Below are positions 16,086 through 60,475 of a DNA stretch of 64,000 nucleotides, in pieces. Each line of letters opens with the position of its first letter. Within the stretch, counting starts at the first letter, position 1. A model generated the notes under the pieces. That model was not told where the DNA came from, ran no database searches, and was given only the letters and a program-made list of their open reading frames with translations. The position numbers and the translations under genes were made by a program. This stretch comes from an uncultured bacterium (lineage in GTDB: Bacteria; Planctomycetota; UBA1135): NCBI GenBank assembly GCA_937919925.1, contig CALFOT010000036.1, forward strand, positions 61,504 through 125,503, in the 5' to 3' direction.

Positions 16086-16320
16086 TCATTTTGGAGTGCC
16101 GCTACAGGAATTTCTTCGTTCATATTTCCGTCGCCCTCCTTTTTTTTCAGGCTCGCAATGAATACAGGAATGTGTCGATTAGGGCGGCTTTATACCCTTT
16201 TTTTTGCCTTCCGGCAGAATAAAGGTGATTTAGGTCTTAATATCCTGTAACCTACTGCCTGAAATTTTGAGACTCTCCTCCAAAAAACCCAAAACTCCCA
16301 AACTCCCAAATCCTTCTGCC

Positions 16321-18285: not shown

Positions 18286-18346
18286 GCCTTTCTCTCCTAA
18301 TTCTGTGGGGCGGGTGGCCGATGGTCCCCCGCCCCTTCTCCTTAAA

Positions 18347-44825: not shown

Positions 44826-44828
44826 CCG

Positions 44829-46739: not shown

Positions 46740-47885
46740 ATGAGAGGGACGCTTTCTAAGAAGCAAACTCCTGTGAAATTCATCACCCGCACTTCCCCTG
46801 TCGCTGTTCATTTCGGCGCTCTGGACACCCGTCTCCTCCAGCTCAAGGAGGGACCCACTGGTTGGTCGGTGCATTGCGCCGAGACCGTGGACGGCAGTGG
46901 TCCAGCTCATCACACCGCCATCGTTGAGACTTTATTGCCCCGCTGGAAAGAACTCAAGCTGCGCGGCAAAGATTGCCTCGCGAGTATTTCCGGCGAAAAA
47001 ATTGCCGTCTCGCTGGTGCCAGTGGAGCCGCATAACCGTGAGCGAATGCAGCAAACCCTAAAGGAAACGGCAATGCGTTCGGTTGCGGATCCCGAAGGTG
47101 TCACTTATCGCTATTTGCCTCTTTCTGATGGCCTTAAGGGCAGCGATGGCCTCAGTGGCGACGACGGCATTAACGTGCGCGAAGAAATGCTGCTACTGTC
47201 CGTCGGGCAAAGTGAACTGCGACGCTGCACTACCACGCTCGAAAGTTTGCATCTCCGCCCCGTCAGTATGGAGGTTTCCGCCTTCCCATTGGCGCGCACC
47301 ATGCAGGCCATGCAGAGCCATGTAACCAGCCCGTGGGGGTTTTTACATCTGGGATTTCATCACTCCATCTTTGGCATCATGCTCGGAGGAGAGCTGCGCT
47401 TTATGAAGCCCATGCAGCTGACTGGTGAACGCCTACTCACAACCCTAGAAAAATCTTTGGCGCGTTTCGAAGAACCGGACTCGCAAGCGATTGCAAATTT
47501 ACTCAGCGGCATGCAGGAAGAACAGGAGCCTGTTGCCAAGGTCAACGCCGAAACCGTACCGCAAATCACTCTCAAAGCCGCTGGCCATGCGACCGAGCTT
47601 TTGCATACCCTTCGCTTGGAGGCAGAAGCCTTAGCGCAAGAGGTCCGCGCCTGCTTGCGTCACTTCGCCGATCGTCATCGTGGTGCCAAGTTACACAACT
47701 TGCAACTAGCCGGCTTTGGTGCAGCCCTCCCAGAAGTTGAAAACGCCTTGCAAAACGCGCTCAACTTCCCGACTACCATCGCCAAGCCGTTTACCACGCT
47801 AGGCATCAAAGCACCAGAATCTGTCCTTGCCGAGGAGCACTTGTGGTGTATTCCCCTTGGCCTTGCCATGCGAGCCTACGTATGA
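46740..47885 (+). CDS. pilM: PilM-like actin-fold assembly protein
   Basis: 381 aa with a PilM-like N-terminal layout (VAVHFGALDTRLLQLKEG...). It lies directly upstream of PilN/PilO-like bitopic proteins. Confidence 0.6.
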   Translation: MRGTLSKKQTPVKFITRTSPVAVHFGALDTRLLQLKEGPTGWSVHCAETVDGSGPAHHTAIVETLLPRWKELKLRGKDCLASISGEKIAVSLVPVEPHNRERMQQTLKETAMRSVADPEGVTYRYLPLSDGLKGSDGLSGDDGINVREEMLLLSVGQSELRRCTTTLESLHLRPVSMEVSAFPLARTMQAMQSHVTSPWGFLHLGFHHSIFGIMLGGELRFMKPMQLTGERLLTTLEKSLARFEEPDSQAIANLLSGMQEEQEPVAKVNAETVPQITLKAAGHATELLHTLRLEAEALAQEVRACLRHFADRHRGAKLHNLQLAGFGAALPEVENALQNALNFPTTIAKPFTTLGIKAPESVLAEEHLWCIPLGLAMRAYV

Positions 47886-48511
47886 GAACTGCTGACTTTT
47901 TACCTCTTGAAGCTTACGAGAATCACCTCGAGCGTCGGCGTACACCCAAGCGCTTGGCGATTCTTGGCGCGTTCGCCGTTTTGTGTTTGGTGGGCGGTGG
48001 TGCGGTGGCGCTCGAAGCAGACCACCAAAGCGGCCTTGCTGAAAAAGCAGAAGCTCCGAATCAACTCGAAACAACTGCCGGCGAGGAATTGCGCGGTTTG
48101 TACAAGGAGATGAATCAGTACGTCAGTCGTCTGGATCCACTCGCCGACCACCTCCGCATGCCTGCTCTGGGTGGCTTGCTGGCGGAACTCGCAGGCGCCG
48201 CCGGTGAGTTTGTGCAGATTGAAAAGATTGAGTGGGCCCACGACGTCAAACGTAAGGGTGTGATCAAAATTGATTCCGCCGAGATTCATCTAGCGATTAC
48301 CGCGCTGGTTCGCGGCGACCAAAACCTCGTTGACTTGCCTGCGCGCCTAGTGGATTACACCGGTTTTACGGAAGCCTACATCGGTGGCAACACTGAGCTC
48401 ATTCTGAATATGAACGATACTGTCCGTGCCACGATTTTCATCAGCGGCCCCCTGCTGCTGCCCGGTTTCGACACCCCGGTTATGCATTCGAACGGAGGAC
48501 TGCAACGATGA
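47882..48511 (+). CDS. PilN-like bitopic membrane protein
   Basis: A short cytoplasmic N-terminus, a single TM (LAILGAFAVLCLVGGGAVAL) and a periplasmic coiled-coil. There is an ATGA overlap with the pilM-like gene. Confidence 0.5.
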   Translation: MRTADFLPLEAYENHLERRRTPKRLAILGAFAVLCLVGGGAVALEADHQSGLAEKAEAPNQLETTAGEELRGLYKEMNQYVSRLDPLADHLRMPALGGLLAELAGAAGEFVQIEKIEWAHDVKRKGVIKIDSAEIHLAITALVRGDQNLVDLPARLVDYTGFTEAYIGGNTELILNMNDTVRATIFISGPLLLPGFDTPVMHSNGGLQR

Positions 48512-49068
48512 AACTCTCGCGTTACCGCCTGGCGTTTCTCGCCGGGTTTTTACTCGTGCCAGGAATGATCTGGGGCGTGCAAGTACGCCCCACTCTGGAT
48601 GAGCGAATCTCTTTCATGCAACGCCAGGAGAACGCTAAAACGGTTCAGGCCAAAAACAGCCAGTTGCCAGAACAGCGTGACGCCTTGCGCGACATGTGGA
48701 CGGAGTTTCTACCGGTTGCTGAGCATGCGCTTGCTGACTTAGCAACGGATCTCAACCCCCACCTGATTCAGAAACGCGTGTTTGCCGCCGCAGCGGAGCT
48801 CGACTGTCAAGTCCGCATTCAACAGAAGCCTAGTCTTGAGAATGACACTTCGGTGCGCTTTGTGCTCACCGGTGAAGGCCGTTACTCCAACCTAGTCAAG
48901 CTCGTGGACCAACTCGAGCAAGGGCAACACTTTGTGCGCTTTGAGAAAGTGTCGCTCACTATGCCGACTCGCGATTTCAGTAGCCCCACAGCATCTTCTG
49001 GCGGCGGATTGGTACGTATTGCGGCAATCATTTTGATTCCAGTGTGCCCCCCGGCATCGAATCCGTAG
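48508..49068 (+). CDS. PilO/GspM-like bitopic membrane protein
   Basis: 186 aa with a single N-terminal TM and a ferredoxin-like C-terminal part. There is a 4-nt overlap with the previous gene. Confidence 0.45.
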   Translation: MKLSRYRLAFLAGFLLVPGMIWGVQVRPTLDERISFMQRQENAKTVQAKNSQLPEQRDALRDMWTEFLPVAEHALADLATDLNPHLIQKRVFAAAAELDCQVRIQQKPSLENDTSVRFVLTGEGRYSNLVKLVDQLEQGQHFVRFEKVSLTMPTRDFSSPTASSGGGLVRIAAIILIPVCPPASNP

Positions 49069-49089
49069 AAGAGAAAGGAGGTTCCAAGG

Positions 49090-49770
49090 ATGGCTAGTTC
49101 GGCAACCAAAGCGCAACAAAAAGCGCAGAAAAAGAAGATCATCATCTTGTCCGTCATGATGCTCGCCACCGCCATGACCTGGGGTAAGGCGCTGTTTGCG
49201 AAAGATGAAAAGCCTCTGGCAGCGGCAAACCCAACCGCTACGGCTGTGCCTTTCGCGGGGGCCCCGCGCGGCGCTGGAGGTGCATCTGCGAGTGATTTCC
49301 AAACCAACTCAAGAACTCAAATCAGCAGCTATGCGCAAGCTACCCAGCGTATGGAAATGTGGCCTTCCGCGCTAAAACGGCGGGTTCACAGTGGCCGCAT
49401 CGAGGAGATTGTGCCTTTCGCCGCAGAAGCGGAAGTCACAGACCCAACCCCCGGTGAAGCTGTTGCCGCGAACGCTCAAACCGCTGCCTCTCCCACTCCA
49501 GCAGCTCCGGAGAAGCTCACGATTTTGTTCGAAGACTTGCATTTAAAACTCTCGTCGACGGCAATCATGGGCAAATCTCGCTACGCCAGGATCAATGGCG
49601 AGCAAGTCACGGTTGGCCAGGAAATCGAAGTTCAGGTTGGGCCAGAAACGGTCCGATATGAAGTTAGTGCGATTCATGCGCGCGAAGTGGAGATTCGCTA
49701 TTCCGGCGAAACCTACTCGTTGCGGATAAAAGTGCCTGGCTTAAACAACCGTGCACAAGAAGGAGCCTGA
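49090..49770 (+). CDS. PilP/GspC-like protein
   Basis: N-terminal TM, an Ala/Pro-rich linker and a C-terminal beta domain, LKLSSTAIMGKSRYARINGEQVTVGQEIE...VSAIHAREVEIRY, like the PilP/GspC HR domain. Confidence 0.45.
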   Translation: MASSATKAQQKAQKKKIIILSVMMLATAMTWGKALFAKDEKPLAAANPTATAVPFAGAPRGAGGASASDFQTNSRTQISSYAQATQRMEMWPSALKRRVHSGRIEEIVPFAAEAEVTDPTPGEAVAANAQTAASPTPAAPEKLTILFEDLHLKLSSTAIMGKSRYARINGEQVTVGQEIEVQVGPETVRYEVSAIHAREVEIRYSGETYSLRIKVPGLNNRAQEGA

Positions 49771-49773
49771 CCA

Positions 49774-51498
49774 ATGACTACACAACGATTCTCAACGACG
49801 ATTTTAGTGATCGCCGCCATGGCCGCAAGCACATCTGCTGCTGCTCAAGAGCAGCCTACCGGGCAAGAACCGGTAGTGGAACTAACCGCGCCGGTGCCCT
49901 TACCTTTCCAGCATTTAGACGCTGACGCCGCGATTACCGTGAACTTTCAAGATGAGGACTTGGGTGAAATCCTCGAACTATTCAGTACCAACTACGAACT
50001 GAACTTGGTGTACGGCCCCGACGTCATGGGGTCCGTCACCATGAACTTCTTTGATGCACCCGTACAAGACGCCCTGGCGAAACTACTGTCCGCAAACGGT
50101 TTCATGTACGAAATCGACGGCAAGTTTCTGATGATCAAGCCGCTGCCCACGGCGACGCCAGGTACCAGTGCTGCTTCGAAGTTCCTCCCCACGGTGATTT
50201 ACTTGAATCACGTGCGTGCTGAAGAAGCCATGCCAATGCTGCAGCCGATGCTGTCTGGCAATGAACGCATGATTTCGGGCATGAAACCGCAAAAAGGAAT
50301 CTCCTCGATTGAAGACCTAGGTGGCAATGAAGAAGCTTCGCAAGAGATTCTTGTTCTCTATGCAAGTGAGGCCAGCATCGAAAAGATCCATGATCTGCTC
50401 AAAAAAATCGACGTGCCGCCGACCCAGGTTTTGGTCGAAGCAACGATTTTGTCCGTTTCCCTCACCGATAATTTCCAACTCGGTGTAGATTTCAGCGCTT
50501 TTGGTGGCATTGACTTTCAGGCTATGGGCGGCGTCACTAGCGTAACCGATGGGATTTCCACGGACACGACTAGCGGCGGGCCCCTGGGTGGCTGGCTTGG
50601 TGGTTTGTCGCAACGCGGTTTCACCAACGCAGCCAGTGACGGCTTGCACTTTGGCATCCTGCGCAATCAAATCGGCATGTTTGTCTCCGCTCTTGAGAGC
50701 GTCAGCAACACCACCGTACTCTCAAATCCGCAGATTTTGACTTTGAACCGTCATGCTGCTGAACTCTTAGTTGGCCGCAAGCTTCCTTACATCACCACCA
50801 CCACGACCCAAACAGGAACACTGCAATCCGTGAAGTTCCTAGAAGTTGGGACCTCGTTAGTTTTTCGCCCGTTCGTAACCAATGATGGTTATGTACGCAT
50901 GGAAATCTATCCGAAGAAGTCGGATGGTTTTATCAACTCACTCGGCTTGCCTGAGGAGACCACCACCGAAGTAAAGACCAACGTATTGGTTCGCGAAGGC
51001 AACACCGTTGTGATTGGTGGATTGATCGAAACGGGTCAAGTGACGGAAACGGACCAAGTGCCATTCTTGGGCTCCATTCCTTATATTGGTGAACTTTTCC
51101 GCTCTCAGCTTGAAGTCGAGACCAAGAGTGAAATCATTGTTCTGCTCACGCCGCACATCATCGATGACGCAGGACTAGCACAACGGTCAGATAACTTCCG
51201 CATGCGCATCGATGCCGCACGCGCCACTTTGGCATCCTCGCACCACGGCTACTTACGCCCCGGTGTTGCGCGCCAAATGTACGCCCAAGCCGCCGACGCC
51301 TTGGCTGCCGGAGACCCCGCAGCTGCACTCGCAAAAGCCGAATGGGGCTTGCAAGCCATGCCTGCAGATCCAGATTTAAACGCGCTCGCCGTTCATTGTC
51401 GCCACGAAATCAGCGCGCGACTGGAAGACAAAACAGAGCTCCAAGGTGTCGTAGAGTTCTTAGACCGGGAACGTCAAAAGGAAGAGGCAAACAAATGA
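49774..51498 (+). CDS. Secretin (GspD/PilQ family)
   Basis: Signal peptide, N-domain and the secretin core VLSNPQILTLNRHAAELLVGRKLPY...VKTNVLVREGNTVVIGGLIE...QVPFLGSIPYIGELFR. Confidence 0.85.
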   Translation: MTTQRFSTTILVIAAMAASTSAAAQEQPTGQEPVVELTAPVPLPFQHLDADAAITVNFQDEDLGEILELFSTNYELNLVYGPDVMGSVTMNFFDAPVQDALAKLLSANGFMYEIDGKFLMIKPLPTATPGTSAASKFLPTVIYLNHVRAEEAMPMLQPMLSGNERMISGMKPQKGISSIEDLGGNEEASQEILVLYASEASIEKIHDLLKKIDVPPTQVLVEATILSVSLTDNFQLGVDFSAFGGIDFQAMGGVTSVTDGISTDTTSGGPLGGWLGGLSQRGFTNAASDGLHFGILRNQIGMFVSALESVSNTTVLSNPQILTLNRHAAELLVGRKLPYITTTTTQTGTLQSVKFLEVGTSLVFRPFVTNDGYVRMEIYPKKSDGFINSLGLPEETTTEVKTNVLVREGNTVVIGGLIETGQVTETDQVPFLGSIPYIGELFRSQLEVETKSEIIVLLTPHIIDDAGLAQRSDNFRMRIDAARATLASSHHGYLRPGVARQMYAQAADALAAGDPAAALAKAEWGLQAMPADPDLNALAVHCRHEISARLEDKTELQGVVEFLDRERQKEEANK

Positions 51499-52625
51499 AT
51501 AACGTCAAAGGAATCCTAGTAGTTGCTCTCTTTGGAGCCAGCTGTTCCGTCATCGGTCCACGCGATTACAGTGAAACATCTGATACAGAGGCCACCGCTC
51601 AGCGCAGTGTTTCTGTGACCCAAGACGGCAACAAGCGCGAACTTGATACCGAGCCGGTTGAAACAAGCGATTGGCAAGCCGCCAGGGGCAGCATCTTGCG
51701 CACCTTTGCTTTCCGCGCACTTGAAAAAAACTTGGTTGAAGAGGCGCGGTCGTATCTGACCGAAGCCTGTGAGATTGACCCAAACGACATCGCCTGCCAC
51801 GCTGCTTTGGCGCGTTTGTATCTGGCGGATGGTGATCAGAAGTCCGCGCTGATTTATGCGGAACGGGCAGCGCGCGTAGCGCCGAACAACCCTGAAATTA
51901 GCATGGTCTATGCGGCCGCGTTGGCGGAAAACAACCGCATGGAGGAAGCAACTGCCACCCTGGAAACCGCGTGGAACGAAGTGGAGCACAATCCAATTTT
52001 CGCACGCGCGATTTTGACTCACTACTCAGCCATGGGGCGGACCGACCAGGCCAAAGATTTTGTTCAGAAAATTTTGATGGAAGATCCTAGCCACGCGTCA
52101 TCCTGGGCTTTAGCTGGCGACTTGTTGTTGTCAGAAGGGGATCTGGAGGCTGCTGGCGAATCCTATCGCAAGGCGCTGGAAATTGACCCCAACACCCCTA
52201 CCCCGGAATCGGTACAACTGATTCTCGGCAGTACGCCAGCAGGTCAAGATCCGCTATTTAGCGTTGCGCAAGCGGCTGAAGCCAAAGGCGACTATAAGTC
52301 AGCAACCAACCTCTACCGTTTTTTGGTCGAGACCAAGCCTTTGAACATGGACGCCCGCATGGGGCTGAGCCGTGTTTTGTTGGAGCAAAAACGTTTCGAG
52401 CAAGCTGACTATCAACTCTCGCAAGTGACCCTTGGTGTACGCGGTTGGCGCGGCAACGTATTGCAAGCCAAACTCGACATCCACTTCGAACGTTACGGCC
52501 AAGCTCGCACTGCCCTTAAGCTGGCCCTCCAAGAGCGCCCGGACCAACGCGCGGCAGAACTCCTGCTGGCCTTCGTCGAAGAGCGCATTCAAGAAGATCT
52601 CGCCGACGGTCAGGAAGACGCCTGA
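51495..52625 (+). CDS. TPR-repeat lipoprotein (PilF/PilW-like pilotin candidate)
   Basis: The ATG at 51495 overlaps the secretin stop (ATGA). Lipobox VALFGASCS, and multiple TPR units. Confidence 0.6.
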   Translation: MNNVKGILVVALFGASCSVIGPRDYSETSDTEATAQRSVSVTQDGNKRELDTEPVETSDWQAARGSILRTFAFRALEKNLVEEARSYLTEACEIDPNDIACHAALARLYLADGDQKSALIYAERAARVAPNNPEISMVYAAALAENNRMEEATATLETAWNEVEHNPIFARAILTHYSAMGRTDQAKDFVQKILMEDPSHASSWALAGDLLLSEGDLEAAGESYRKALEIDPNTPTPESVQLILGSTPAGQDPLFSVAQAAEAKGDYKSATNLYRFLVETKPLNMDARMGLSRVLLEQKRFEQADYQLSQVTLGVRGWRGNVLQAKLDIHFERYGQARTALKLALQERPDQRAAELLLAFVEERIQEDLADGQEDA

Positions 52626-52628
52626 TCC

Positions 52629-54599
52629 GTGGCGGGGCATCCAAATCCATCATTGGAAACCCTGAACAAAACCTACGACTTCTCACTGCCGGCTGTTTTA
52701 AACAAGTCCCGCAGCGAAGACATCCTTGACCTGTGGGAGCAGGTGCTTGAGCATGACGTACGTGAAGTCGATGGCAGCTCAGTGGCAAGCATCGATTCCT
52801 TTGGTTTAGCGTTGTTACTCGACGGCTTGCGGCGAGCACGCTTCGAAGAGAAACCCATCACGATTTGCAATCCTGCGCCACCGTTACGAGCGGTGCGCCG
52901 GGCCTTCAACCTGCATGACTTGATCGTGTTTCCAGACGGTTTCGAAGAGCCTGTCCAGGAAGCGGAACTTGGCATGCGGCTGGGCGAAGTGCTCATCCAG
53001 CTCGGCTATCTCAAGGTTGACAGTTTAGAACAAGCGATTGCGCGTGCTCAAGAGCGGCCAGATACTTACCTCGGTCAAGTTCTGGTCGAAGAAGGCCACA
53101 TTAGTGAAGAGCAACTGGCACGCGCCCTGGCCATGCAACACGGCATGCCATACGTGGATCCAGCCAACGAAGGCGTGCTCGATGTTTCGCTCGAATGTGA
53201 TGTGCCATTTGCGGAACTGCGGGTGCACGGCATCCTCCCCTATCTGCGCCTCGGCGATACTTTAGCCGTTTCGTTGAAAGATCCGGCTGACGTTTATGCA
53301 GCCGATGTGGTGCGTAAATACACCGGCCTCTCGGTCATCGCCACCGTCGCGACACCGTTAGCAATTAATGCTGGGCTCGACCACATTCAGCGCGCCATTG
53401 CCGCAAGTGGCGGCACCGGGGATGCAACCATTGATGAGGATGGCGTCAGTTCCGAAGAGCGCTTCAATAAAATTGTGGCCAACGCAATTATTGAAGGTGC
53501 CTCTGATATTCACATTGAACCGTTTACTGATTTTTACATTTTGCGCTACCGCGTAGACGGGCGTTTGCACGAAGTCACGCGCTTAAGTGTGCAGCTTGGT
53601 CACTCTTTAGTCGCGCGCATCAAAGTGACGGCGGGCTGTGACATCGCCGAAAAACGTCTGCCGCAGGATGGCCGCATTCACTATCAAGACCGCTCGCGCG
53701 ATGTCGACTTGCGCGTCAACACCTTGCCGACGGTGAACGGCGAGAAGGCGGTAATGCGTATTTTGGACCGCAACACTTCCGCCCTGGCGTTGAATATGCT
53801 TGGCTTGCATGGCACGAACGCAAAGTGGATTGAAGAAGCGATCCACCAGCCACACGGCATGGTTTTAGTCACCGGCCCAACGGGTTCCGGTAAAACAACT
53901 ACGCTTTACAGTGTGCTGGACGAGATTGTTAATCCCGAAACAAATGTTTCTACGGTTGAGAACCCAGTGGAACGTGCCGTTAAAGGGGTGAACCAGACGC
54001 AAATCAATCAAAAGGCCGGGCTTACCTTTGAGCTCTGTCTGCGAGCGTTGCTGCGTCAAGACCCTGACGTGATTATGATTGGCGAGATTCGAGACTTTGA
54101 AACTGCAGAAATCGCAGTAGAGGCGGCCCTCACCGGCCACCTAGTACTCGCCACATTGCACACCAACGATGCCCCTGGTGCCGCATCGCGTTTGATTCAA
54201 ATGGGTATGGAGCCGTTTCTGGTGGCTGCAACTTTACGTGCCGTGGTGGCACAGCGCCTCGTACGTAAACTGTGTGAAGCATGCAAAAAACCGGTCGACT
54301 ACCCAGCCGAAGTGTTTCGTGAGTACAGCAAATATGGCCTCCAGGAAGGCCCTCACTTTTCTTCTGCGGGTTGCCCTGCATGCCGTCAAACAGGATATGA
54401 TGGGCGCCGCGGAATTTTTGAAGTGATGAAAATCACCGACAACGTACAAGATTTAATCGCCACGAACCCCTCGTCGGCAGACCTGCGCAAACTGGCGCTA
54501 AATGAAGGAATGGACTCTCTTCTCTCGGACGGAATGGACCGCGTCAACCGTGGCATTACGACTTTGGAAGAAGCTCTACGCGCAGGAGGAAAATCATGA
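52629..54599 (+). CDS. GspE/PilB-family secretion ATPase with N-terminal STAS-like and MshEN-type domains
   Basis: Walker A GPTGSGKTTT, Asp box, Walker B DPDVIMIGEIRD, His box and the tetracysteine CEACK...CPACR. For the N-terminal extension see findings. Confidence 0.85.
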   Translation: MAGHPNPSLETLNKTYDFSLPAVLNKSRSEDILDLWEQVLEHDVREVDGSSVASIDSFGLALLLDGLRRARFEEKPITICNPAPPLRAVRRAFNLHDLIVFPDGFEEPVQEAELGMRLGEVLIQLGYLKVDSLEQAIARAQERPDTYLGQVLVEEGHISEEQLARALAMQHGMPYVDPANEGVLDVSLECDVPFAELRVHGILPYLRLGDTLAVSLKDPADVYAADVVRKYTGLSVIATVATPLAINAGLDHIQRAIAASGGTGDATIDEDGVSSEERFNKIVANAIIEGASDIHIEPFTDFYILRYRVDGRLHEVTRLSVQLGHSLVARIKVTAGCDIAEKRLPQDGRIHYQDRSRDVDLRVNTLPTVNGEKAVMRILDRNTSALALNMLGLHGTNAKWIEEAIHQPHGMVLVTGPTGSGKTTTLYSVLDEIVNPETNVSTVENPVERAVKGVNQTQINQKAGLTFELCLRALLRQDPDVIMIGEIRDFETAEIAVEAALTGHLVLATLHTNDAPGAASRLIQMGMEPFLVAATLRAVVAQRLVRKLCEACKKPVDYPAEVFREYSKYGLQEGPHFSSAGCPACRQTGYDGRRGIFEVMKITDNVQDLIATNPSSADLRKLALNEGMDSLLSDGMDRVNRGITTLEEALRAGGKS

Positions 54600-55765
54600 A
54601 TTTAACCGCCCTTAAAAAGAACAAGAAGAATGCCCAACAGGACGCGATGTCCTACGGCGGAACGGTTTCAAATGATGCTGACCAGCGCCGCAAGGATGGC
54701 GCCTCCTCGGTTGCTTCGGCCGACACGCGGATCAAACTGAAACCCAAGGAAACGCTACAGCTTCTCATCCAAATGGATGCTATGTTGACCGCTGGCGTGC
54801 CGTTACTTGCAGCTTTGCGCACCCTGATTGAGCATGCGCAAACCCCACCCACGGAGCGCGTATTGACTCGTTTGACTGCAATTGTGGAAGGTGGCCAAGA
54901 CCTCTCCTACGCTTTCAAATGTCTGCCCAACTGCTTCCCTTCCTACGTCGTTCACTTAACCGCCGCCGGCGAACAATCAGGTGCTCTCGACGAGGCTTTA
55001 CAGCGCTCGATCCAGCTGCTCGACAACTCCATCGTGTTGGGTGGAAAAATCAAAGGTGCGTTGATGTACCCGGGCTTCTTGATGTTCATGACTTTTGTGA
55101 TGACCACCGGCATTCTTTACTTCTTAGTGCCGAAATTCGAAAGCCTGATGATGAAGAAGCCAGAGTTACTACCGTGGACCACCAAGCTGGTCTTGGGTGC
55201 CTCGCAAACTTTGCGTGCCCAACCGGCACTGGTGTTTGGAATCTTTACGGTGATTTTTGTTGCGGTTGTGTTCTTAGTCAAATCAAAAAGAGCACGGGGA
55301 ACCTTGTTCGATATCGTCAGCCACGTACCAGTGTTAGGTGACTTGATTTTCAAAGCTTATCTGTCGCGCTCTGTAGGTACTTTGGCGCTGACGCTGGAAT
55401 CCGGCGTACCGATTTTGACTGGCCTCGATCACGCTCGCCAAGTCTCCGAACTGCCGCGCTTGCAGGCTCTCTGGGTACAAACTGCTGAAATCGTCCGCGA
55501 TGGTAAGCCCATGTTCACCGCCATGGCGGGTGAAGATCTACCCCCGGCATTGATCCAAATGATTATTGCCGGTGAGTCTTCCGGAACGCTAGATACCAGT
55601 TTGCGTCGAGCTGCCGAGTTCCTCGACCGCGAAACGCAAGCTGCACTCAACGCATTTACTAGTCTGCTCGGCCCGGCCACGGTAGTGATTGCCGGTGGCG
55701 TGGTTGGCTTCATTGTCATCGCTCTGATGACCCCGATCCTCACGATGGCCAAATACGTCGGATAA
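54596..55765 (+). CDS. GspF/PilC-family platform protein
   Basis: 389 aa with two T2SSF repeats and 3 TM helices. There is a 4-nt overlap with the ATPase gene. Confidence 0.8.
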   Translation: MNLTALKKNKKNAQQDAMSYGGTVSNDADQRRKDGASSVASADTRIKLKPKETLQLLIQMDAMLTAGVPLLAALRTLIEHAQTPPTERVLTRLTAIVEGGQDLSYAFKCLPNCFPSYVVHLTAAGEQSGALDEALQRSIQLLDNSIVLGGKIKGALMYPGFLMFMTFVMTTGILYFLVPKFESLMMKKPELLPWTTKLVLGASQTLRAQPALVFGIFTVIFVAVVFLVKSKRARGTLFDIVSHVPVLGDLIFKAYLSRSVGTLALTLESGVPILTGLDHARQVSELPRLQALWVQTAEIVRDGKPMFTAMAGEDLPPALIQMIIAGESSGTLDTSLRRAAEFLDRETQAALNAFTSLLGPATVVIAGGVVGFIVIALMTPILTMAKYVG

Positions 55766-55768
55766 ATC

Positions 55769-56191: not shown

Positions 56192-56646
56192 AGCGTGGCT
56201 TTTCCCTGATTGAAGTGGTGATGGTTGCTGCCATCGCCCTGATTCTGTTTGCCATGGCTGTGCCTGCTGTGCAGAACAACGACGCTGCCGGTGCGGTTGC
56301 ACGCAGCATTGTTTCTGATGCCGTGCGCGCACGCTCCTACTCACGCCGCACTTGGGAATCCGTGACGATGCAGGTTGATTCTAACCATGCGCGCTGGCGT
56401 ACTTTGCGCGAAAACGGTGTACCGCTCAGCACCGTTGGCGGCGATGCCTTCGGCTGGCGCTATTTGCCACCTGGCGTGGAGTTTCGAACCATCGAAGGCA
56501 TGCCAAGTGACTTGGTCTTTTTCCCTAACGGACGCGCGTCCCAATCTGCCGCGGTTCATGTGGTGTTTGGCAACAATGTTTGGTTGCTAGGCGTCGATTC
56601 CATCAGTGCACGCATTCGTGCCGAGCCCGTCTCCATTCCGGAGTAG
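56170..56646 (+). CDS. Minor pseudopilin (GspH/FimT-like)
   Basis: ER-G/FSLIEVVMVAAIALILFAMAVP prepilin motif. Length 158 aa. Confidence 0.7.
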   Translation: MASSRTLERGFSLIEVVMVAAIALILFAMAVPAVQNNDAAGAVARSIVSDAVRARSYSRRTWESVTMQVDSNHARWRTLRENGVPLSTVGGDAFGWRYLPPGVEFRTIEGMPSDLVFFPNGRASQSAAVHVVFGNNVWLLGVDSISARIRAEPVSIPE

Positions 56647-56649
56647 ATT

Positions 56650-57198
56650 ATGAGAATTCACATCCAGCGAAAGAATCTAGGTTTCACCTTGGTGGAAATC
56701 ATGATTGCAACCACCATTGCCATGGTGCTGCTATTCGGCGCGCTTTACTCCACCAGTGAAACACTCAACGTGGTGCGTGAAGGCGACGCCGTCGTCCATA
56801 CCGATGTACACGCGCGCCGGGCGCTTGATCGGGTACTGAAAGATTTTCGCTACTCCGCAGCGCTGGAAGTTACCGGGGATGCCGTCACCGGCTGGAACAT
56901 TGAAGTGACCACCACTGGCACTTTGGACCCGGGCGTGATTACTTACGCTTGGACTCCCGCAACGAAAAAGCTGATGGTTACCGGCCTCAGCGGAGTCGAA
57001 ATGGTTCTGAATGATTTGCGCAGCTTCGATCTCACCACCCTCACCGACGTCATCGATGGCGTGACCGTCATCACCCGTGTGTCGATGACTTGGGTGCTCG
57101 GAATCACTTCCGGGAGTGAAGCGGGCGCGGAAGCCATCAATGCAGAACGCTCCCTCACCCTTGGGGGAGCCACTTGGGTGCGCCGCAATGACACCTAG
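56650..57198 (+). CDS. Minor pseudopilin (GspJ/PulJ-like)
   Basis: NL-G/FTLVEIMIATTIAMVLLFG prepilin motif. Length 182 aa. Confidence 0.7.
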   Translation: MRIHIQRKNLGFTLVEIMIATTIAMVLLFGALYSTSETLNVVREGDAVVHTDVHARRALDRVLKDFRYSAALEVTGDAVTGWNIEVTTTGTLDPGVITYAWTPATKKLMVTGLSGVEMVLNDLRSFDLTTLTDVIDGVTVITRVSMTWVLGITSGSEAGAEAINAERSLTLGGATWVRRNDT

Positions 57199-57232
57199 TT
57201 GCTAGGGATTGATGTGGGGCGAAAATCCTCAC

Positions 57233-57304
57233 GGAAACACTAACCACATTGCGATTGGGGTGTTTCCTTCCCTGCCGCAGTCCTTCGGGGCTGCGGTTTT
57301 TTTT
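57233..57304 (+). terminator. Two tandem hairpins. The second is a strong intrinsic terminator (possible attenuator) immediately upstream of the GspK-like gene.
   Basis: Hairpin 1 is GGAAACAC (57233-40) / GTGTTTCC (57260-67). Hairpin 2 is CCGCAGTCC-TTCG-GGGCTGCGG (57275-96), followed by T8 (57297-304). The next start codon is at 57345. Confidence 0.65.
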
Positions 57305-57344
57305 ATTCAGTCGCCGCCTCAGCATCCGCAAAGGACTTAGAGAA

Positions 57345-59141
57345 ATGAAAAATTTCACCAATAATATGGCGCACCAAGAGCGCGGCACAGTGCTGATTCT
57401 GGTACTGATTATTACCAGTCTGCTGGCGACTGCGGCTTGGAGCTACACCGATGAGGTGGATAGCCTTGTCGACAACACGCGTGATGAAGGCGGTGCTTTA
57501 CGCGCCCAATTTGCGGCCGAATCCGGTATGGAATATGCACAACGCAGGCTCACGATTGATCCCTATTGGTCTGGTACGGGCCAAGGTGGATTTACTCTTC
57601 CGGATGGAATCACCAATTTCGTGATTACCACGGGGATTGACCCCAATTGGGTCGATGAGGACAAAGACGGTCACGATGACGAAATCGAGGGCGGAGGTGA
57701 AGGCGGAGGCGAAGGCAGTTCGCCACCGTGTGAAGAGGATCTCGACCACAACGGCTGTGAAGGTGATGAAGACGAACACCAGCATGGCCACGACCACGAT
57801 TGTGAAGACGACGAAGATGACGGTTACGGTGGCGGCCATAGCCTTGGCGATCACAGTGATTGTGACCACCGCGGCGAGCATGATGATGACCACGATGGTT
57901 GCGACCACGATGGTGATGAAGCCAACCACGACGACGACGACTGCGATCACGATCACGACAGTGATGGTCGATGCGATCACGATGGCCACCACCGCGACCA
58001 CGACGGTGATTGTGACCACGACGAAGATGACGACGATGATTGTGGTCACGACCACGACTTAGACGGCAGCTGCGATCACGAAGGTAATCACGATGCGGAT
58101 GACGAAGATCCGGATGACGATTGTGACCACGATGATGATGGTGCAGACGACTGCAGCCATGACCATGACGGCGATGGCCTTTGTGACCACGCTCACGACG
58201 GTGACGGCGATTTCCACGATGGCGACGTCAGCGACAACCAAGTCAACCTCATTCGCGTACTCGGCACCGCCGGGGAAGCACGGGCGCAGCTAGGCGCAGC
58301 CGTGAAGGTTTACCCTGGCGAAAGCGGTACTTCGGATATGGCGCTGATTTTCCTCGGCAAAAACTACCACATGCTGCGAAGCACCGTCATTGGCGATGCC
58401 CTGTTTACGGACATGGAAAACAAAGTGAATGACTGGGTATTTGATGCCTACGGTATCGGCCACTACGTGCAGGGCGGGTCCATCCACGATGGCGTCACCA
58501 ACCTCGTACAAAGTGCTGTAGATGGCACGCTGTACAAGTTCCGTGATGATCGCGCCTACCAGGATTTGGGCGAGGAACGCGTCATCGTTGATAACGCCGT
58601 TGCTCCGGCTTACGATCTTTCCGGCTTCTTGGTTCCAGGCCCTGGCAAAACCATTTACACCGGCATTTCCAGTCTTGAGGGTGTGCACCTGGACGATACT
58701 GCAGTGTTCATTCTTGACCCAGGCGTCAAGCTAACGCTGACGAGCTGTAACTTCCGCGGCGGCATGGTGGTCTACTGTCCCACCACTTACAAACTGCGAG
58801 ATGGTTACCGCAACCAGGTTTACCTGAAGGGTGGTACGAGCATCGGTGGCGGCCACGAGGGTGCAGAATCGAACCTAGGTTTGCTCGCTCCTGCAGTCAA
58901 ACTCACCAGCGCGCCCAATAGCGGCTATGGGATCACTGGCTTCACCTACGTCAATGAAGTAGGGGCCATGAAAGATACTTTCTTCCACGGACAGTTGGTG
59001 GTGTTGAATCAGGTCAGCAACCTTAAAGATTCGTTGATCATCTACGATGAGGCCATCGCCATGGCACCGCCACAGAGCGTTGGTTTTGGCACCACCATCG
59101 GTAGCACCGACATCATCTCGGTCTACGAAGACTTCGACTAG
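57345..59141 (+). CDS. GspK/PilX-like tip pseudopilin with an Asp/His/Cys-rich repeat insertion
   Basis: MKNFTNNMAHQERGTVLILVLIITSLLATAAW is a GspK/PilX_N-type N-terminus. The gene is last in the minor-pseudopilin row, and codon use is consistent. The ORF-track start at 57249 would include the terminator. Confidence 0.65.
   Translation: MKNFTNNMAHQERGTVLILVLIITSLLATAAWSYTDEVDSLVDNTRDEGGALRAQFAAESGMEYAQRRLTIDPYWSGTGQGGFTLPDGITNFVITTGIDPNWVDEDKDGHDDEIEGGGEGGGEGSSPPCEEDLDHNGCEGDEDEHQHGHDHDCEDDEDDGYGGGHSLGDHSDCDHRGEHDDDHDGCDHDGDEANHDDDDCDHDHDSDGRCDHDGHHRDHDGDCDHDEDDDDDCGHDHDLDGSCDHEGNHDADDEDPDDDCDHDDDGADDCSHDHDGDGLCDHAHDGDGDFHDGDVSDNQVNLIRVLGTAGEARAQLGAAVKVYPGESGTSDMALIFLGKNYHMLRSTVIGDALFTDMENKVNDWVFDAYGIGHYVQGGSIHDGVTNLVQSAVDGTLYKFRDDRAYQDLGEERVIVDNAVAPAYDLSGFLVPGPGKTIYTGISSLEGVHLDDTAVFILDPGVKLTLTSCNFRGGMVVYCPTTYKLRDGYRNQVYLKGGTSIGGGHEGAESNLGLLAPAVKLTSAPNSGYGITGFTYVNEVGAMKDTFFHGQLVVLNQVSNLKDSLIIYDEAIAMAPPQSVGFGTTIGSTDIISVYEDFD
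57654..58235 (+). repeat. Degenerate coding repeat array encoding the Asp/His/Cys-rich module
   Basis: About 11 units of C-[DGS]-H-[DE]-x-D-x-D-G-x (CDHDHDSDGR, CDHDGHHRDHDGD, CDHDEDDDDD, CGHDHDLDGS, CDHDDDGADD, CSHDHDGDGL and others). The DNA is dominated by GAC/GAT/CAC/TGT/TGC codons. Confidence 0.85.
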
Positions 59142-59207: not shown

Positions 59208-60470
59208 ATGGCCACTCGTAAAGACCCTAAGCAGCGCCACGGCTGCCAGCAATCCGGCGCCGGTTTGCGGCACCGCCCAGTGACCGAATCGAAGCACCTC
59301 GATCACCTTTTTGAGAGCAGCTTCCCGTCGTTCGGTGGCGCGTTTTTGCGCCGCATCTGGACCCTACTCGATGAAGCCATCGGCATGGGCCTACCGATGA
59401 CCATGTCTGTTTCGGGCCCCGTCACCGCCAGCGGCCAGCACTACGCATGGCTCAATCCGCTGCTCGACACCGGGTGGTTTGCTTATCTTTCCGTCACCGA
59501 TGCCATCTGTTATCACGATGCGCACCGCGCGCTCGAGTCGGTGTCCGAAAGCGACTTCACCGAAGTACCAATTTTTGGCGACGACGGCCAACTGCGTGAT
59601 GAAGAAATCATTCGCATCACCGACATCGGTTTCCCCGAAGGTGTGCTGCTCGATACGGATCGTTACCTGTGCCGCTTGTTGCGGTTGCCAGAATTTCAGC
59701 GCCGCATGACTGGCCCGGAGTTCCGCAACTTACTGGGTGCTCACTTCGCCGCTGCCGAACAAGCATGCGGTGCGCAAGAAGGTTTGATGGCCTTGTGCCA
59801 GCGCAAATCCATTCCTGTGTTTGTCGGCGCCCCCGCCGATGGCTCGGTGTTTTTAAATTCCACTCTGCTGTGGGCCCTCGCCCAAACCGGCGGAGATGCG
59901 TATGCCTTCGAGCTCGACTTGCACGGCGAGGTCATGGAATCCTGCGCCTACCACCACTGGGGTTTGTTCGAATCCGCTGCGCAGAATCTCGGCACCGTCA
60001 TCCTCGGCGGCGGCGTCCCGAAAAACTTCAGCCTGCAACCCGAACCAGCGCTCAGCCAAATTTTTGGTTTCGACGACATTCGCGGTTACTTGTACGACAT
60101 CCAAATTACCACTGCACCGGTCACCGATGGTTCGCTCTCAAGCTGTCCACCGGCGGAAGCCGTGACTTGGGGCAAAGTGGATAAAGAAAACTACCGCCAA
60201 ACCACCGAGAGTTTTACCTGCGATTACTCCATCGTGATGCCGCTCCTCACCAAGGCGCTGCTGGATAAACGCGCGCGTTTGCAGCGTTTGCAGCAAGAAC
60301 TCGGCATGGAAACCCTGCTCGAACGTCATCCAGAAGCCGCGGGTTATCTGCGCCCTACCGACGGCTTCCGCCTGTTTGATCAGCGCGCCACCTTGCTGGC
60401 TACCTTGATGAGCAAAGTGCGCGATAATGCCGCCCGTCTGCGCGCCGACTCCGGCCTGTCCCCCGCCTGA
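59208..60470 (+). CDS. Deoxyhypusine synthase-like (DHS/homospermidine synthase family) protein
   Basis: 420 aa. LGGGVPKNF and the SVSGPVTASG...SVTDAICYHD layout resemble the bacterial DHS-like family. This is recognition by motif only. Confidence 0.55.
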   Translation: MATRKDPKQRHGCQQSGAGLRHRPVTESKHLDHLFESSFPSFGGAFLRRIWTLLDEAIGMGLPMTMSVSGPVTASGQHYAWLNPLLDTGWFAYLSVTDAICYHDAHRALESVSESDFTEVPIFGDDGQLRDEEIIRITDIGFPEGVLLDTDRYLCRLLRLPEFQRRMTGPEFRNLLGAHFAAAEQACGAQEGLMALCQRKSIPVFVGAPADGSVFLNSTLLWALAQTGGDAYAFELDLHGEVMESCAYHHWGLFESAAQNLGTVILGGGVPKNFSLQPEPALSQIFGFDDIRGYLYDIQITTAPVTDGSLSSCPPAEAVTWGKVDKENYRQTTESFTCDYSIVMPLLTKALLDKRARLQRLQQELGMETLLERHPEAAGYLRPTDGFRLFDQRATLLATLMSKVRDNAARLRADSGLSPA

Positions 60471-60475
60471 GCCCC

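What the first reader, a model, noticed from the sequence alone, without database searches (positions are those of the whole stretch)
57654..58235. Asp/His/Cys-rich repeat module inside a GspK/PilX-like tip pseudopilin
The last gene of the pseudopilin row (57345-59141) begins like GspK/PilX (QERGTVLILVLIITSLLATAAW). It then carries a block of about 194 aa made almost only of D, H, C, G and E. By hand count the block has about 73 Asp, about 30 His and 13 Cys.

Cys residues recur every 10-17 positions in a degenerate unit C-D-H-D-x-D-x-D-G-x. Examples are CDHDHDSDGR, CDHDGHHRDHDGD, CGHDHDLDGS, CSHDHDGDGL and CDHAHDGDGDF.

The D-x-D-x-D-G-x-x-C-D-x-D spacing recalls thrombospondin type-3 Ca-binding, disulfide-stapled repeats. 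Here the variable positions are filled with His, as in Ni/Zn/Cu/Co-binding His-rich proteins. GspK-type proteins cap the pseudopilus, so this would put a dense metal-chelating wire at the tip of a surface or periplasmic fibre. Possible roles are metal scavenging, mineral or metal-oxide adhesion, or Ca/metal-gated extension. I know of no described pseudopilin with such a module.
Basis: partly seen in the sequence, partly recalled or inferred. Interest (0 to 1): 0.82.

Follow-up and report, generated by a model that had tools for sequence, protein, structure and literature searches.

The report
Asp/His/Cys-rich insert in tip pilin
The last gene of a type IV-filament operon in an uncultured Planctomycetota bacterium encodes a tip-type pilin carrying a real, strongly conserved 194-residue insert made almost only of Asp, His, Gly, Glu and Cys, which most likely binds many metal ions, though nothing here shows what it does.

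Summary
Gene 57345-59141 (+) encodes 598 aa, and residues 104-297 (nt 57654-58235) hold 72 Asp, 30 His, 31 Gly, 17 Glu and 13 Cys.

The block is not an assembly artefact or a drifting low-complexity tract. It recurs in register in at least six other assemblies. Its amino-acid identity (72-86%) matches that of the flanking folded domains, while synonymous sites are near saturation. All five full-length window-type and P0015-type blocks have exactly 13 Cys.

Relatives of about 405 aa lack the block, so it is a clean insertion into one loop of the pilin module.

The host protein is not a classical GspK. It has a GspK-like N-terminus but no full GspK model match. By fold it is closest to ComZ of Thermus, a tip pilin that combines a GspK-like pilin module with an ice-binding-protein-type beta-solenoid.

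The block matches no Pfam, NCBIfam or PDB sequence, including TSP type 3. It does carry tandem Dx[DN]xDG calcium-loop motifs, invariant Cys-x-His and a net charge of about -85.

Best reading: a metal-templated, high-capacity cation-binding head on a modular tip pilin. It is a new variant of a known kind, with its function untested.

The parts
57345..59141 (+). Gene for a 598-aa modular tip-type pilin (ComZ/GspK-like) that carries the insert
   Evidence: ORF. Translation and start. Family of 270 representatives at E<=1e-3, mostly about 400 aa. Fold match to ComZ 6qvi.
57375..57440 (+). GspK-like N-terminus QERG|TVLILVLIITSLLATAAW: Gly(-1), hydrophobic alpha1, no Glu+5
   Evidence: NCBIfam NF037980 positions 1-59, E 9.5e-4. 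The Gly is invariant in 44 family members. Predicted helix 15-71.
57345..57653 (+). N-terminal part of the pilin module (alpha1 and first beta-strand, aa 1-103)
   Evidence: AF2 secondary structure H15-33, H48-71, E90-98. Aligns with block-less relatives.
57654..57728 (+). Variable Gly/Glu/Asp linker at the start of the insert (aa 104-128)
   Evidence: The only part of the block with indels among orthologues. Weak 12-nt repeat.
57729..57860 (+). Less regular Cys/His/Asp part of the insert (aa 129-172, Cys 1-3)
   Evidence: Conserved in window-type orthologues but replaced in paralogue P0015.
57861..58235 (+). Conserved core of the insert (aa 173-297): ten C-[DGS]-H units forming a roughly 35-aa super-repeat with three Cys each
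   Evidence: 78-86% identity to window-type orthologues and 72% to paralogue P0015, with no indels among window-type orthologues (P0015 has one extra residue). Over the aligned block, identity to P0015 is 70% against 64% for the flanks. Three exact matches to the CxHDHDxDGxCDH pattern, 0 expected.
58236..58319 (+). Beta-strands 2-3 of the pilin module, directly after the insert
   Evidence: E300-309 and E312-323, pLDDT 86-89. Aligned in all relatives.
58344..59087 (+). Ice-binding-protein-type beta-solenoid module
   Evidence: pLDDT 80-96. Foldseek hits to IBPs (4nuh E 8e-4; 3uyv 6.2e-5 for the relative) and to the ComZ solenoid.
59103..59132 (+). Last beta-strand, returning after the solenoid (same order of elements as in ComZ)
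   Evidence: E587-596. ComZ topology as described in PMC6561018.
55769..57198 (+). Three prepilin-type minor (pseudo)pilin genes (140, 158 and 182 aa), weakly GspI/H/J-like
   Evidence: PF07963 N_methyl and TIGR02532 hits; weak GspH, GspI and GspJ hits.
52629..55765 (+). Assembly ATPase (STAS + MshEN + T2SSE) and GspF/PilC platform protein
   Evidence: PF00437 3e-130, PF13466, PF05157, PF00482 9e-44. PilB/GspE and GspF NCBIfam hits.
46740..52625 (+). PilM-like gene, three unassigned ORFs, secretin (49774-51498) and TPR lipoprotein (probable start 51495)
   Evidence: PF11104, PF00263, STN and TPR hits. The same gene order is seen in L016 and L017.

Best explanation
The gene encodes a modular tip-type minor pilin of a type IV-filament (T2SS/T4P-like) machine. 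It has a GspK-like N-terminal helix and small pilin sheet, plus a ComZ-like beta-solenoid.

In one sub-clade of uncultured Planctomycetota, a module of 140-200 residues was inserted into the loop after the first beta-strand of the pilin sheet. I propose that this module has no hydrophobic core and folds only around bound divalent cations.
- Tandem Dx[DN]xDG loops would bind Ca2+, which is abundant outside the cell.
- The evenly spaced Cys would either staple consecutive loops as disulfides or, under anoxia, act as ligands.
- The invariant His in each Cys-x-His unit, with neighbouring Asp, would provide sites for transition metals.

Displayed on the first-assembled (tip) subunit, the module would act as a high-capacity, metal-dependent binding head. 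Its role would be attachment to cationic, mineral or metal-oxide surfaces, or capture of metal ions.

Shown here: the architecture, the insertion, its conservation and its motif content. Inferred: tip location, metal binding, the redox state of the Cys, and the physiological role.
For: **Composition and non-random pattern.** D72, H30, C13, G31 and E17 in 194 aa; shuffle tests. Net charge without His is -85 in the window and -51 to -96 in relatives. Dx[DN]xDG occurs 5-11 times in window-type and P0015-type blocks.

**Position-specific purifying selection.**
- Block identity is 72-78%, and 78-86% in the core. The flanking folded domains show 75-85%.
- Meanwhile 42-45% of conserved two-fold codons differ, which is close to saturation.
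- Identity expected from composition alone is about 0.20 (my arithmetic from the counts).
- There are no indels in the core.
- Against paralogue P0015, the block (70%) is better conserved than the flanks (64%).
- All five full-length window-type and P0015-type blocks have exactly 13 Cys. In L004 one Cys was lost and another gained.

**Recurrent D/H insert.** A second lineage (P0017) carries a different D/H-rich insert at the same loop.

**No hydrophobic core.** Apart from the single residue between DG and the next Cys, the core has almost no hydrophobic residues. This fits an ion-templated fold.

**Host protein.** It is last in the pseudopilin row. ComZ is the top structural match: E 4.9e-7 for block-less relative P0010 and 1.7e-3 for the window protein. 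ComZ is argued to be a tip pilin with a GspK-like pilin domain (PMC6561018).

**Precedents.** GspK/XcpX bind 2-3 Ca2+ (PMC6211770). Dx[DN]xDG binds Ca2+ in at least twelve structural contexts, including thrombospondin (PMC3123361). Grafting functional modules onto pilins is widespread (PMC8179133).
Against: - No metal-binding family model matches the block.
- AlphaFold2 gives pLDDT below 40 and no secondary structure for residues 106-297. However, it models no ions and had only two sequences covering this region.
- Nothing in the neighbourhood points to metal uptake or mineral attachment.
- No major pilin or retraction ATPase is evident in the operon, so it is not known whether the fibre reaches the surface.
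- An odd number of Cys cannot be fully paired.
- The P0017-type insert has only 3 Cys and is a recent DNA-level tandem repeat. Cys stapling is therefore not essential to whatever D/H-rich inserts do at this loop.
Confidence: 0.45

Rival explanations
1. Purely structural calcium wire. The block is a shortened, divergent analogue or homologue of thrombospondin type 3 repeats. Ca2+-filled Dx[DN]xDG loops are held by consecutive disulfides and form a rigid stalk or spacer. The His residues have no ligand role.
For: - The C-D-x-D-x-D-x-D-G unit, the tandem Dx[DN]xDG motifs and the regular Cys spacing.
- A super-repeat of about 35 aa, close to the TSP3 repeat length as I recall it (not tested here).
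- Thrombospondin uses Dx[DN]xDG in binuclear Ca sites (PMC3123361).
- The TSP type 3 region has many Ca sites and thiol-disulfide isomerisation (PMC2289535).
- Ca2+ sites are known in GspK.
Against: - There is no hit to Pfam TSP_3 even at E<=10, and no thrombospondin or COMP hit in PDB searches.
- The His after each Cys-Asp is invariant across orthologues and the paralogue. A pure Ca wire does not require this.
- The P0017-type insert keeps D and H but almost no Cys.
Confidence: 0.2
2. Disordered polyanionic spacer. Selection acts only on charge and composition. The block would serve as an entropic or electrostatic bristle that keeps the tip hydrated, repels surfaces or phage, or eases passage through the secretin. 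It would have no defined structure or specific ligand.
For: - AF2 predicts coil with pLDDT below 40.
- The composition is extreme and no family matches.
- The N-terminal Gly/Glu linker varies in length.
- The P0017 insert is a recent DNA-level repeat.
Against: - The core is conserved in register at 78-86% with no indels despite near-saturated synonymous change. Composition alone predicts about 20% identity.
- The Cys count and positions are conserved.
- C-x-H and Cys spacing are far from random.
Confidence: 0.15
3. Pseudopilus-internal role. The fibre is a short periplasmic T2SS-type pseudopilus. The acidic block would contact the secretin gate or basic secreted substrates as an electrostatic plug or cargo hook, rather than an external target.
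For: - The operon has GspE/F-like genes, a secretin and an H/I/J/K-like row, but no obvious major pilin or PilT.
- The N-terminus is GspK-like.
- Relatives carry 2-3 tandem tip paralogues, which could match different cargos.
Against: - The ATPase scores slightly better against PilB than GspE. PilM-like and TPR (PilW/PilF-like) genes point to a T4P-type machine.
- The closest structure is a T4P tip pilin, ComZ.
- No candidate cargo genes are evident nearby.
Confidence: 0.12
4. Assembly artefact or decaying pseudogene segment.
For: - Contigs L002 and L003 start inside the block.
- L001 has an in-frame stop later in the gene.
- P0003 looks chimeric at this repeat.
Against: - The same block, in frame, occurs in at least six other assemblies with many synonymous differences.
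- L005, otherwise the same sequence type as L001, has Glu in place of the stop.
Confidence: 0.02

Closest known systems
ComZ of Thermus thermophilus (PDB 6QVI), competence-pilus tip pilin
   Same: - Best structural match: E 4.9e-7 for block-less relative P0010 and 1.7e-3 for the window protein.
- Same build: a GspK-like pilin module plus an ice-binding-protein-type beta-solenoid, with a final strand after the solenoid.
- Encoded next to other minor pilins.
   Different: - No detectable sequence similarity.
- ComZ has no Asp/His/Cys insert.
- ComZ binds DNA, whereas a block with charge about -85 would repel DNA unless bridged by cations.
GspK / XcpX, the T2SS tip minor pseudopilin
   Same: - Last gene of the minor-pseudopilin row.
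- N-terminus with Gly(-1) and no Glu+5.
- A large protein with a domain grafted into the pilin fold.
- GspK binds 2-3 Ca2+.
   Different: - The full GspK model is not met (18.8 bits against a cut-off of 130), and there is no PF03934 hit.
- It has a beta-solenoid instead of the alpha-domain.
- It has a 194-aa ion-binding-like insert rather than discrete Ca sites.
Modular pilins (for example PilB and PilC of Streptococcus sanguinis)
   Same: A pilin carrier with functional modules grafted on for display at the filament tip. PilB's vWA module holds a metal ion at its MIDAS site (PMC8179133).
   Different: - Here there are two additions: a solenoid and a core-less D/H/C insert. The D/H/C insert lies inside the pilin sheet rather than at the C-terminus.
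- No InterPro or Pfam domain describes the insert.
Thrombospondin/COMP type 3 repeats and other Dx[DN]xDG calcium loops
   Same: Tandem Dx[DN]xDG motifs, Asp-rich and without a hydrophobic core, with interspersed Cys. The unit C-D-x-D-x-D-x-D-G resembles the TSP3 C-type motif as I recall it.
   Different: - No profile match.
- Units are 10-17 aa with one Cys each.
- The variable positions are filled by invariant His.
His/Asp-rich high-capacity cation binders (sarcoplasmic histidine-rich Ca-binding protein, Hpn-type Ni proteins, ZnuA His/Asp loops), recalled from general knowledge
   Same: Extreme His plus acidic composition that suggests multivalent metal binding.
   Different: These are soluble storage or chaperone proteins or transporter loops, not filament subunits. 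There is no shared repeat unit and no regular Cys. None was tested here.

Membership tests
GspK (T2SS minor pseudopilin K; NF037980 / PF03934) | N-terminal prepilin-like segment with Gly(-1), a hydrophobic helix and no Glu at +5 | tested here: met
   QERG|TVLIL.... The Gly is invariant in 44 relatives. NF037980 positions 1-59, E 9.5e-4.
GspK (T2SS minor pseudopilin K; NF037980 / PF03934) | Whole-protein match to the curated GspK models | tested here: not met
   18.8 bits against a cut-off of 130. No PF03934 hit for the whole protein or its parts at E<=10.
GspK (T2SS minor pseudopilin K; NF037980 / PF03934) | Alpha-helical domain inserted in the pilin sheet | tested here: not met
   The models show an all-beta solenoid after the sheet. 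No GspK chain appears among the Foldseek hits.
GspK (T2SS minor pseudopilin K; NF037980 / PF03934) | Last gene of the minor pseudopilin row, downstream of the ATPase and platform genes | tested here: met
   Gene order 52629-59141. The same order is seen in L016 and L017.
PilX_N (PF14341) | Match to the PilX N-terminal model | tested here: not met
   E 3.9, 8 bits against a cut-off of 25.5.
ComZ-like tip pilin (pilin module plus IBP-type beta-solenoid) | Fold-level match covering both modules | tested here: met
   6qvi E 4.9e-7, probability 1.0, about 530 aligned columns for relative P0010; E 1.7e-3 for the window model. TM-scores are low (0.18-0.31).
ComZ-like tip pilin (pilin module plus IBP-type beta-solenoid) | Sequence homology to ComZ | tested here: not met
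   The family profile found no PDB chain with a credible score.
ComZ-like tip pilin (pilin module plus IBP-type beta-solenoid) | Location at the filament tip; DNA binding | not testable with these tools
   This needs imaging or biochemistry. For ComZ itself the tip location was argued on steric grounds.
Thrombospondin type 3 repeat (PF02412) | Match to the TSP_3 profile or to solved TSP/COMP sequences | tested here: not met
   No Pfam family at E<=10 for the block. PDB phmmer and profile searches gave no TSP or COMP hit. HMMER's bias filter may suppress such matches.
Thrombospondin type 3 repeat (PF02412) | Tandem Dx[DN]xDG calcium loops | tested here: met
   6 strict DxDxDG in the window block; 5-11 Dx[DN]xDG in related window-type and P0015-type blocks. 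Shuffle mean 1.5, with 71 of 20,000 shuffles reaching 6.
Thrombospondin type 3 repeat (PF02412) | Cys paired in disulfides that staple successive repeats; Ca2+ actually bound | not testable with these tools
   13 Cys, an odd number, conserved in count. Redox state and metal content need experiments.
EF-hand / Excalibur-type DxDxDG domains | The loop is flanked by helices (EF-hand) or matches the Excalibur model | tested here: not met
   No helices are predicted in 106-297, and there is no Pfam hit.
Modular pilins (sensu PMC8179133) | IPR012902 / N_methyl class III signal motif plus an extra non-pilin domain | tested here: inconclusive
   Extra modules are present. PF07963 is not detected in this protein, though it is detected in two of the three upstream pilins. 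TIGR02532 exceeds its cut-off in only two of them. GspK-type N-termini commonly lack Glu+5.

The most novel reading that the evidence does not exclude
The filament is a metal- or mineral-targeting device. A type IV fibre would carry, on its first-assembled subunit, an ion-templated Asp/His/Cys module able to hold tens of cations. The cell would use it to capture scarce trace metals (Zn, Co, Ni, Cu, Fe, possibly lanthanides) or to anchor to carbonate or metal-oxide particles. Alternative tandem tip paralogues (K1, K2, K3) would swap the target specificity of the same machine.
Probability: 0.15. Interest if true: 0.8.

Novelty: new variant of a known kind. Interest (0 to 1): 0.55.

Why it matters
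Type IV filaments gain new functions by grafting modules onto tip pilins. Known grafts are folded domains such as lectins, vWA domains and solenoids.

This graft is different. It is a 194-residue, core-less module with net charge about -85 that no database family describes. Yet it is conserved position by position as tightly as the folded parts of the protein, and in one paralogue pair more tightly.

If it is ion-templated, it would be a bacterial counterpart of calcium-wire architectures placed on a dynamic fibre. It would also extend pilus functions towards metal or mineral interaction in marine Planctomycetota.

It is also a useful test case for two points:
- Low-complexity sequence can be under strict positional constraint.
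- Structure predictors that ignore ions can label such modules as disordered.

The module is small enough to test directly by recombinant expression.

Tried and rejected
1. **Family scans.** Pfam was run on the whole protein and on its three parts at E<=10. NCBIfam was run on the whole protein at E<=1. Nothing matched the block or the C-terminal domain.

2. **PDB sequence searches.** Searches with the block, the block profile A3 and the family profile A2 gave only chance-level hits.

3. **Block profile against the 5.8-billion-protein set.** 8000 word-sharing candidates were collected and none scored. Even known orthologues were missed, so this search was uninformative, probably because of the candidate cap and bias filter.

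4. **Back-translated DNA patterns in metagenome contigs.** CxHDHDxDGxCDH gave 0 hits and DHDGDCDHD gave 6. The six were microsatellite-like tracts or unrelated small proteins (L012, L015), with no further pilin context. The collection evidently lacks the known JGI contigs.

5. **Nei-Gojobori dN/dS.** Synonymous sites were saturated and the method is biased for two-fold codons. I replaced it with the fraction of conserved residues that use a different codon.

6. **Accession searches for habitat.** Looking up sample and accession identifiers in the paper library found nothing relevant.

7. **Kvansakul 2004 (TSP3 structure).** The paper is not held.

8. **Tandem duplication of the gene.** The long matches from the search for related loci (about 2.5 kb) first suggested this. 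For L005, L006, L008 and L009 I infer that the extra length comes from the upstream pseudopilin gene rather than a second copy. True tandem paralogues do exist in L004, L016 and L017.

9. **Genome-wide compositional quirk.** Rejected, because no other D/H-rich stretch occurs in the window.

10. **Opposite-strand and off-frame ORFs in the block.** ORFs 57498-58055 (-), 57637-58062 (+) and 58059-58241 (-) are shadows of the GAY/CAY codon run, not genes.
Full report
**1. The observation**

ORF 57345-59141 (+) encodes 598 aa. Orthologues start at the equivalent Met (MKCFTENY..., MKFFNKNV...), which supports the ATG at 57345 over the upstream TTG at 57249.

Residues 104-297 (nt 57654-58235) contain 72 Asp, 31 Gly, 30 His, 17 Glu and 13 Cys. 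The other 404 residues contain 29 Asp, 7 His and 2 Cys. One detail is off: the recurring spacing is D-x-D-x-D-G-x-C-D-H, with one residue between Gly and Cys, not two.

The pattern is not what this composition gives by chance. In 20,000 shuffles of the block:
- C-x-H occurs at 10 of 13 Cys against a mean of 1.97, and no shuffle reaches 10.
- A minimum Cys spacing of 9 or more is reached in 3 shuffles.
- DxDxDG occurs 6 times against a mean of 1.5, and 71 shuffles reach 6.

No other D/H-rich stretch exists in any frame of the window. At the DNA level there are only short, weak repeats, so the block is not a recent microsatellite-type expansion. The ORFs on the other strand and in other frames within the block are shadows of the GAY/CAY codon run.

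**2. Real, inserted and conserved**

A search with the C-terminal 301 aa found two kinds of relatives.
- Close relatives (79-85% identical) carry the block, or begin just after it in truncated contigs.
- A larger set of proteins, mostly 405-421 aa (about 50% identical, two more distant), lack it completely.

In the alignment the block is a clean insertion between ...GIDPNW and SDNQVNLIRV....

The block is present, in frame and in register, in several independent assemblies:
- L001/L005, an uncultured Planctomycetales MAG.
- L004, Planctomycetota MAG Ust_12.
- JGI contigs L002 and L003, which begin inside the block, so assemblers do break there.
- ENA contigs L017-L019.

Ust_12 also has a block-less paralogue elsewhere in its genome (L007).

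Three numbers bear on constraint.
- Amino-acid identity. Against L005 and L004 the block is 78% and 72% identical, and the core (aa 173-297) is 86% and 78% identical. The N- and C-terminal folded parts are 75-85% identical.
- Synonymous change. 42-45% of conserved two-fold-degenerate codons use the other codon, where 50% is saturation.
- Expected identity. Two unrelated sequences of this composition would be about 20% identical (my arithmetic from the counts).

The core has no indels. Against the more distant tandem paralogue P0015, the flanks are 64% identical and the aligned block 70%. All five full-length window-type or P0015-type blocks have exactly 13 Cys. In L004 one Cys is replaced by His and a new Cys appears two units later.

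This is position-specific purifying selection, not selection for composition alone. The block is also not an artefact.

**3. Internal anatomy**

- After a variable Gly/Glu linker (aa 104-128) and a less regular part (aa 129-172), the core is a run of ten units that each begin C-[DGS]-H.
- The units form a super-repeat of about 35 aa with three Cys: [C-x-H-D-H-D-x-D-G-x] [C-D-H-x-G-x-H-...-D] [C-D-H-D-x-D-x-x-D-D].
- Across four sequences the invariant residues are the Cys, the His two positions later, most Asp, and the Gly of DG.
- The residue between DG and the next Cys is the main variable site and is often aromatic or aliphatic.
- Net charge without His is -85.

**4. The host protein and its operon**

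The gene order upstream is as follows:
- a PilM-like gene and three unassigned ORFs;
- a secretin;
- a TPR lipoprotein;
- an assembly ATPase with STAS, MshEN (c-di-GMP-binding type) and T2SSE domains;
- a GspF/PilC platform protein;
- three prepilin-type genes, weakly GspI-, GspH- and GspJ-like.

The target gene is last in this row.

Its N-terminus (QERG|TVLILVLIITSLLATAAW) matches positions 1-59 of the NCBIfam GspK model at E 9.5e-4. The score is 18.8 bits against a cut-off of 130. The Gly is invariant in 44 family members, and position +5 is Leu rather than Glu, as in GspK. There is no Pfam hit for any part, and PilX_N scores E 3.9.

AlphaFold2 models give the following.
- The window protein has a long N-terminal helix, one strand, the block (pLDDT below 40, coil), two strands, then a confident beta-rich domain (pLDDT 80-96) and a final strand.
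- A block-less relative, P0010, modelled with 44 sequences reaches mean pLDDT 85.5.

Foldseek against the PDB gives these matches.
- For P0010 the top match is ComZ of Thermus thermophilus (6qvi, E 4.9e-7, probability 1.0), followed by ice-binding-protein beta-helices.
- For the window model, an ice-binding protein comes first (4nuh, E 8e-4) and ComZ second (E 1.7e-3).
- TM-scores are low (0.18-0.31 for ComZ).

The ComZ paper reports exactly this pairing. Its pilin domain is closest to GspK and its solenoid closest to the ice-binding protein FfIBP. The authors argue that its bulk places it at the tip (PMC6561018).

I therefore file the host as a ComZ/GspK-like modular tip pilin. This rests on fold and gene position, not on sequence membership in either family. 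The family has 270 representatives at E<=1e-3, mostly about 400 aa. Only three 50%-identity clusters carry a long D/H insert at this loop: the window type, P0015 and P0017.

**5. Related operons**

L016, L017 and L004 show the same operon and the same downstream genes: a deoxyhypusine/homospermidine-synthase-like gene, then GT2, LAB_N and PMT_2. They differ in carrying two or three tandem paralogues of the tip pilin:
- K1 has no D/H block but has a charged insert elsewhere.
- K2 is the P0015 type.
- K3 is the window type.

The window has only K3. L016 carries P0017, whose insert sits at the same loop. That insert is also Asp/His-rich (75 Asp, 24 His) but has only 3 Cys. It is a DNA-level tandem repeat with period 93 nt and 90% matches.

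An Asp/His-rich insert at this loop has therefore either arisen twice or been remodelled. Several alternative tip subunits can serve a single machine.

**6. What the block is not**

It matches no Pfam or NCBIfam model and no PDB sequence, including TSP_3, EF-hand and Excalibur. These searches use bias filters that penalise such composition, so absence of a hit is weak evidence against distant homology. It is still enough to deny family membership.

A profile search of the large protein set was uninformative. Two DNA-pattern scans found no second protein context for the module. Literature searches found no Asp/His-rich pilin.

**7. Mechanism**

The following are shown: the architecture, the insertion, positional conservation, motif enrichment, and the near absence of hydrophobic residues in the core.

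The following are inferred. A sequence with no possible hydrophobic core, a charge near -85 and residue-level conservation most plausibly folds around bound cations.
- Dx[DN]xDG is a calcium-binding loop that recurs in at least twelve structural contexts, including thrombospondin (PMC3123361).
- GspK and XcpX themselves bind two or three Ca2+ (PMC6211770).
- The invariant Cys-x-His, with many neighbouring Asp, is the ligand set typical of Zn, Ni, Co and Cu sites (general coordination chemistry). A pure Ca wire would not need it.
- The even spacing and conserved count of Cys fit either consecutive disulfides or thiolate ligands. The window also encodes NosZ and NosD, which hints at a low-oxygen lifestyle in which thiolates could persist. 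This is only a hint.

My best explanation is a metal-templated, high-capacity cation-binding head on the tip subunit, used for metal-dependent attachment or capture (confidence 0.45).

The rivals are:
- a Ca-only structural wire (0.20);
- a disordered polyanionic spacer (0.15), which the in-register conservation contradicts;
- an internal T2SS role at the secretin or with cargo (0.12);
- an artefact (0.02).

**8. Comparison and novelty**

It works like a modular pilin, in which a carrier pilin presents a grafted module (PMC8179133). Structurally it is like ComZ. The insert resembles TSP type 3 or DxDxDG calcium architecture in motif only.

It is not a member of GspK, PilX, TSP_3 or EF-hand by their models. 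I rate it a new variant of a known kind: a modular tip pilin with a previously undescribed ion-binding-like insert.

Interest is 0.55. The conservation of so extreme a sequence is surprising and directly testable. Against that, its function is unknown, the organisms are uncultured, and the general principle of grafting modules onto pilins is established.

Noticed in passing
L004 7071-8627; L016 6584-7918; L017 6439-7908, 8001-9647 and 9690-11504: Related Planctomycetota operons carry two or three tandem paralogues of the solenoid tip pilin. K1 lacks the D/H block, and K2 and K3 carry it. The window has only the K3 type, directly after the GspJ-like gene. This suggests interchangeable tip subunits for one machine.
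   Followed up: partly
L016 8001-9668 (P0017): A more distant family member has a different Asp/His-rich insert at the same loop (75 Asp, 24 His, only 3 Cys). It is built from a 93-nt tandem repeat with 90% matches. The insert is either independent or a remodelled version of the window type.
   Followed up: partly
P0003 (455 aa, JGI contig of 1642 nt): A NifX/NifB-like domain (PF02579) is joined directly to the last units of the D/H/C block and the solenoid domain. This is probably a chimeric assembly through the repeat, but a real fusion is not excluded.
   Followed up: no
L001 about 1336-1341, compared with L005: The orthologue on L001 has an in-frame stop (VFDG*VASY). The near-identical L005 has Glu at that position. 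This is a sequencing error or a population-level nonsense variant.
   Followed up: partly
window 52629-54599: The pilus/T2SS ATPase has an N-terminal STAS domain and an MshEN-type c-di-GMP-binding motif (NF053729, E 4.6e-14). This implies second-messenger or partner-switch control of fibre assembly. The architecture is conserved in L016 and L017.
   Followed up: no
window 16267-19693: The window encodes a nitrous-oxide reductase NosZ-like protein (nos_propeller plus cupredoxin/COX2 domains) followed by NosD. This indicates N2O respiration in this Planctomycetota genome.
   Followed up: no
window 43176-46037: Topoisomerase VI subunits B and A lie side by side. This enzyme is uncommon in bacteria.
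   Followed up: no
window 32440-33921: There is an IS66-family transposase with all four IS66 Pfam domains, in a region of lower GC (about 0.50-0.52).
   Followed up: no
window 59208-63224: Four genes lie immediately downstream: a deoxyhypusine/homospermidine-synthase-like gene, a GT2 glycosyltransferase, an ORF at 60730-61569 (not scanned here; LAB_N in the relatives) and a PMT_2 (ArnT-like) gene. They follow the pilin gene in the window and in most related loci whose contigs extend that far (L002, L016, L017, L019; PMT_2 is absent in L016). Any functional link to the filament is unknown.
   Followed up: no
L015 about 60-440; L012 (- strand ORF of 230 aa): Two unrelated metagenomic proteins have Asp/His/Cys-rich tracts. 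One is a small secreted protein (...HDHDHGHDHDHDGDCDHDDDHDDHDDDGCCDD...). The other is a PEP-CTERM-anchored protein with an acidic DHDGDCDHDD segment. They show that such tracts occur in other exported proteins.
   Followed up: no
window 8234-10858: A large protein combines several cytochrome c motifs with a PA14 domain. It sits next to a GSDH/DUF7133-type protein and an oxidoreductase.
   Followed up: no
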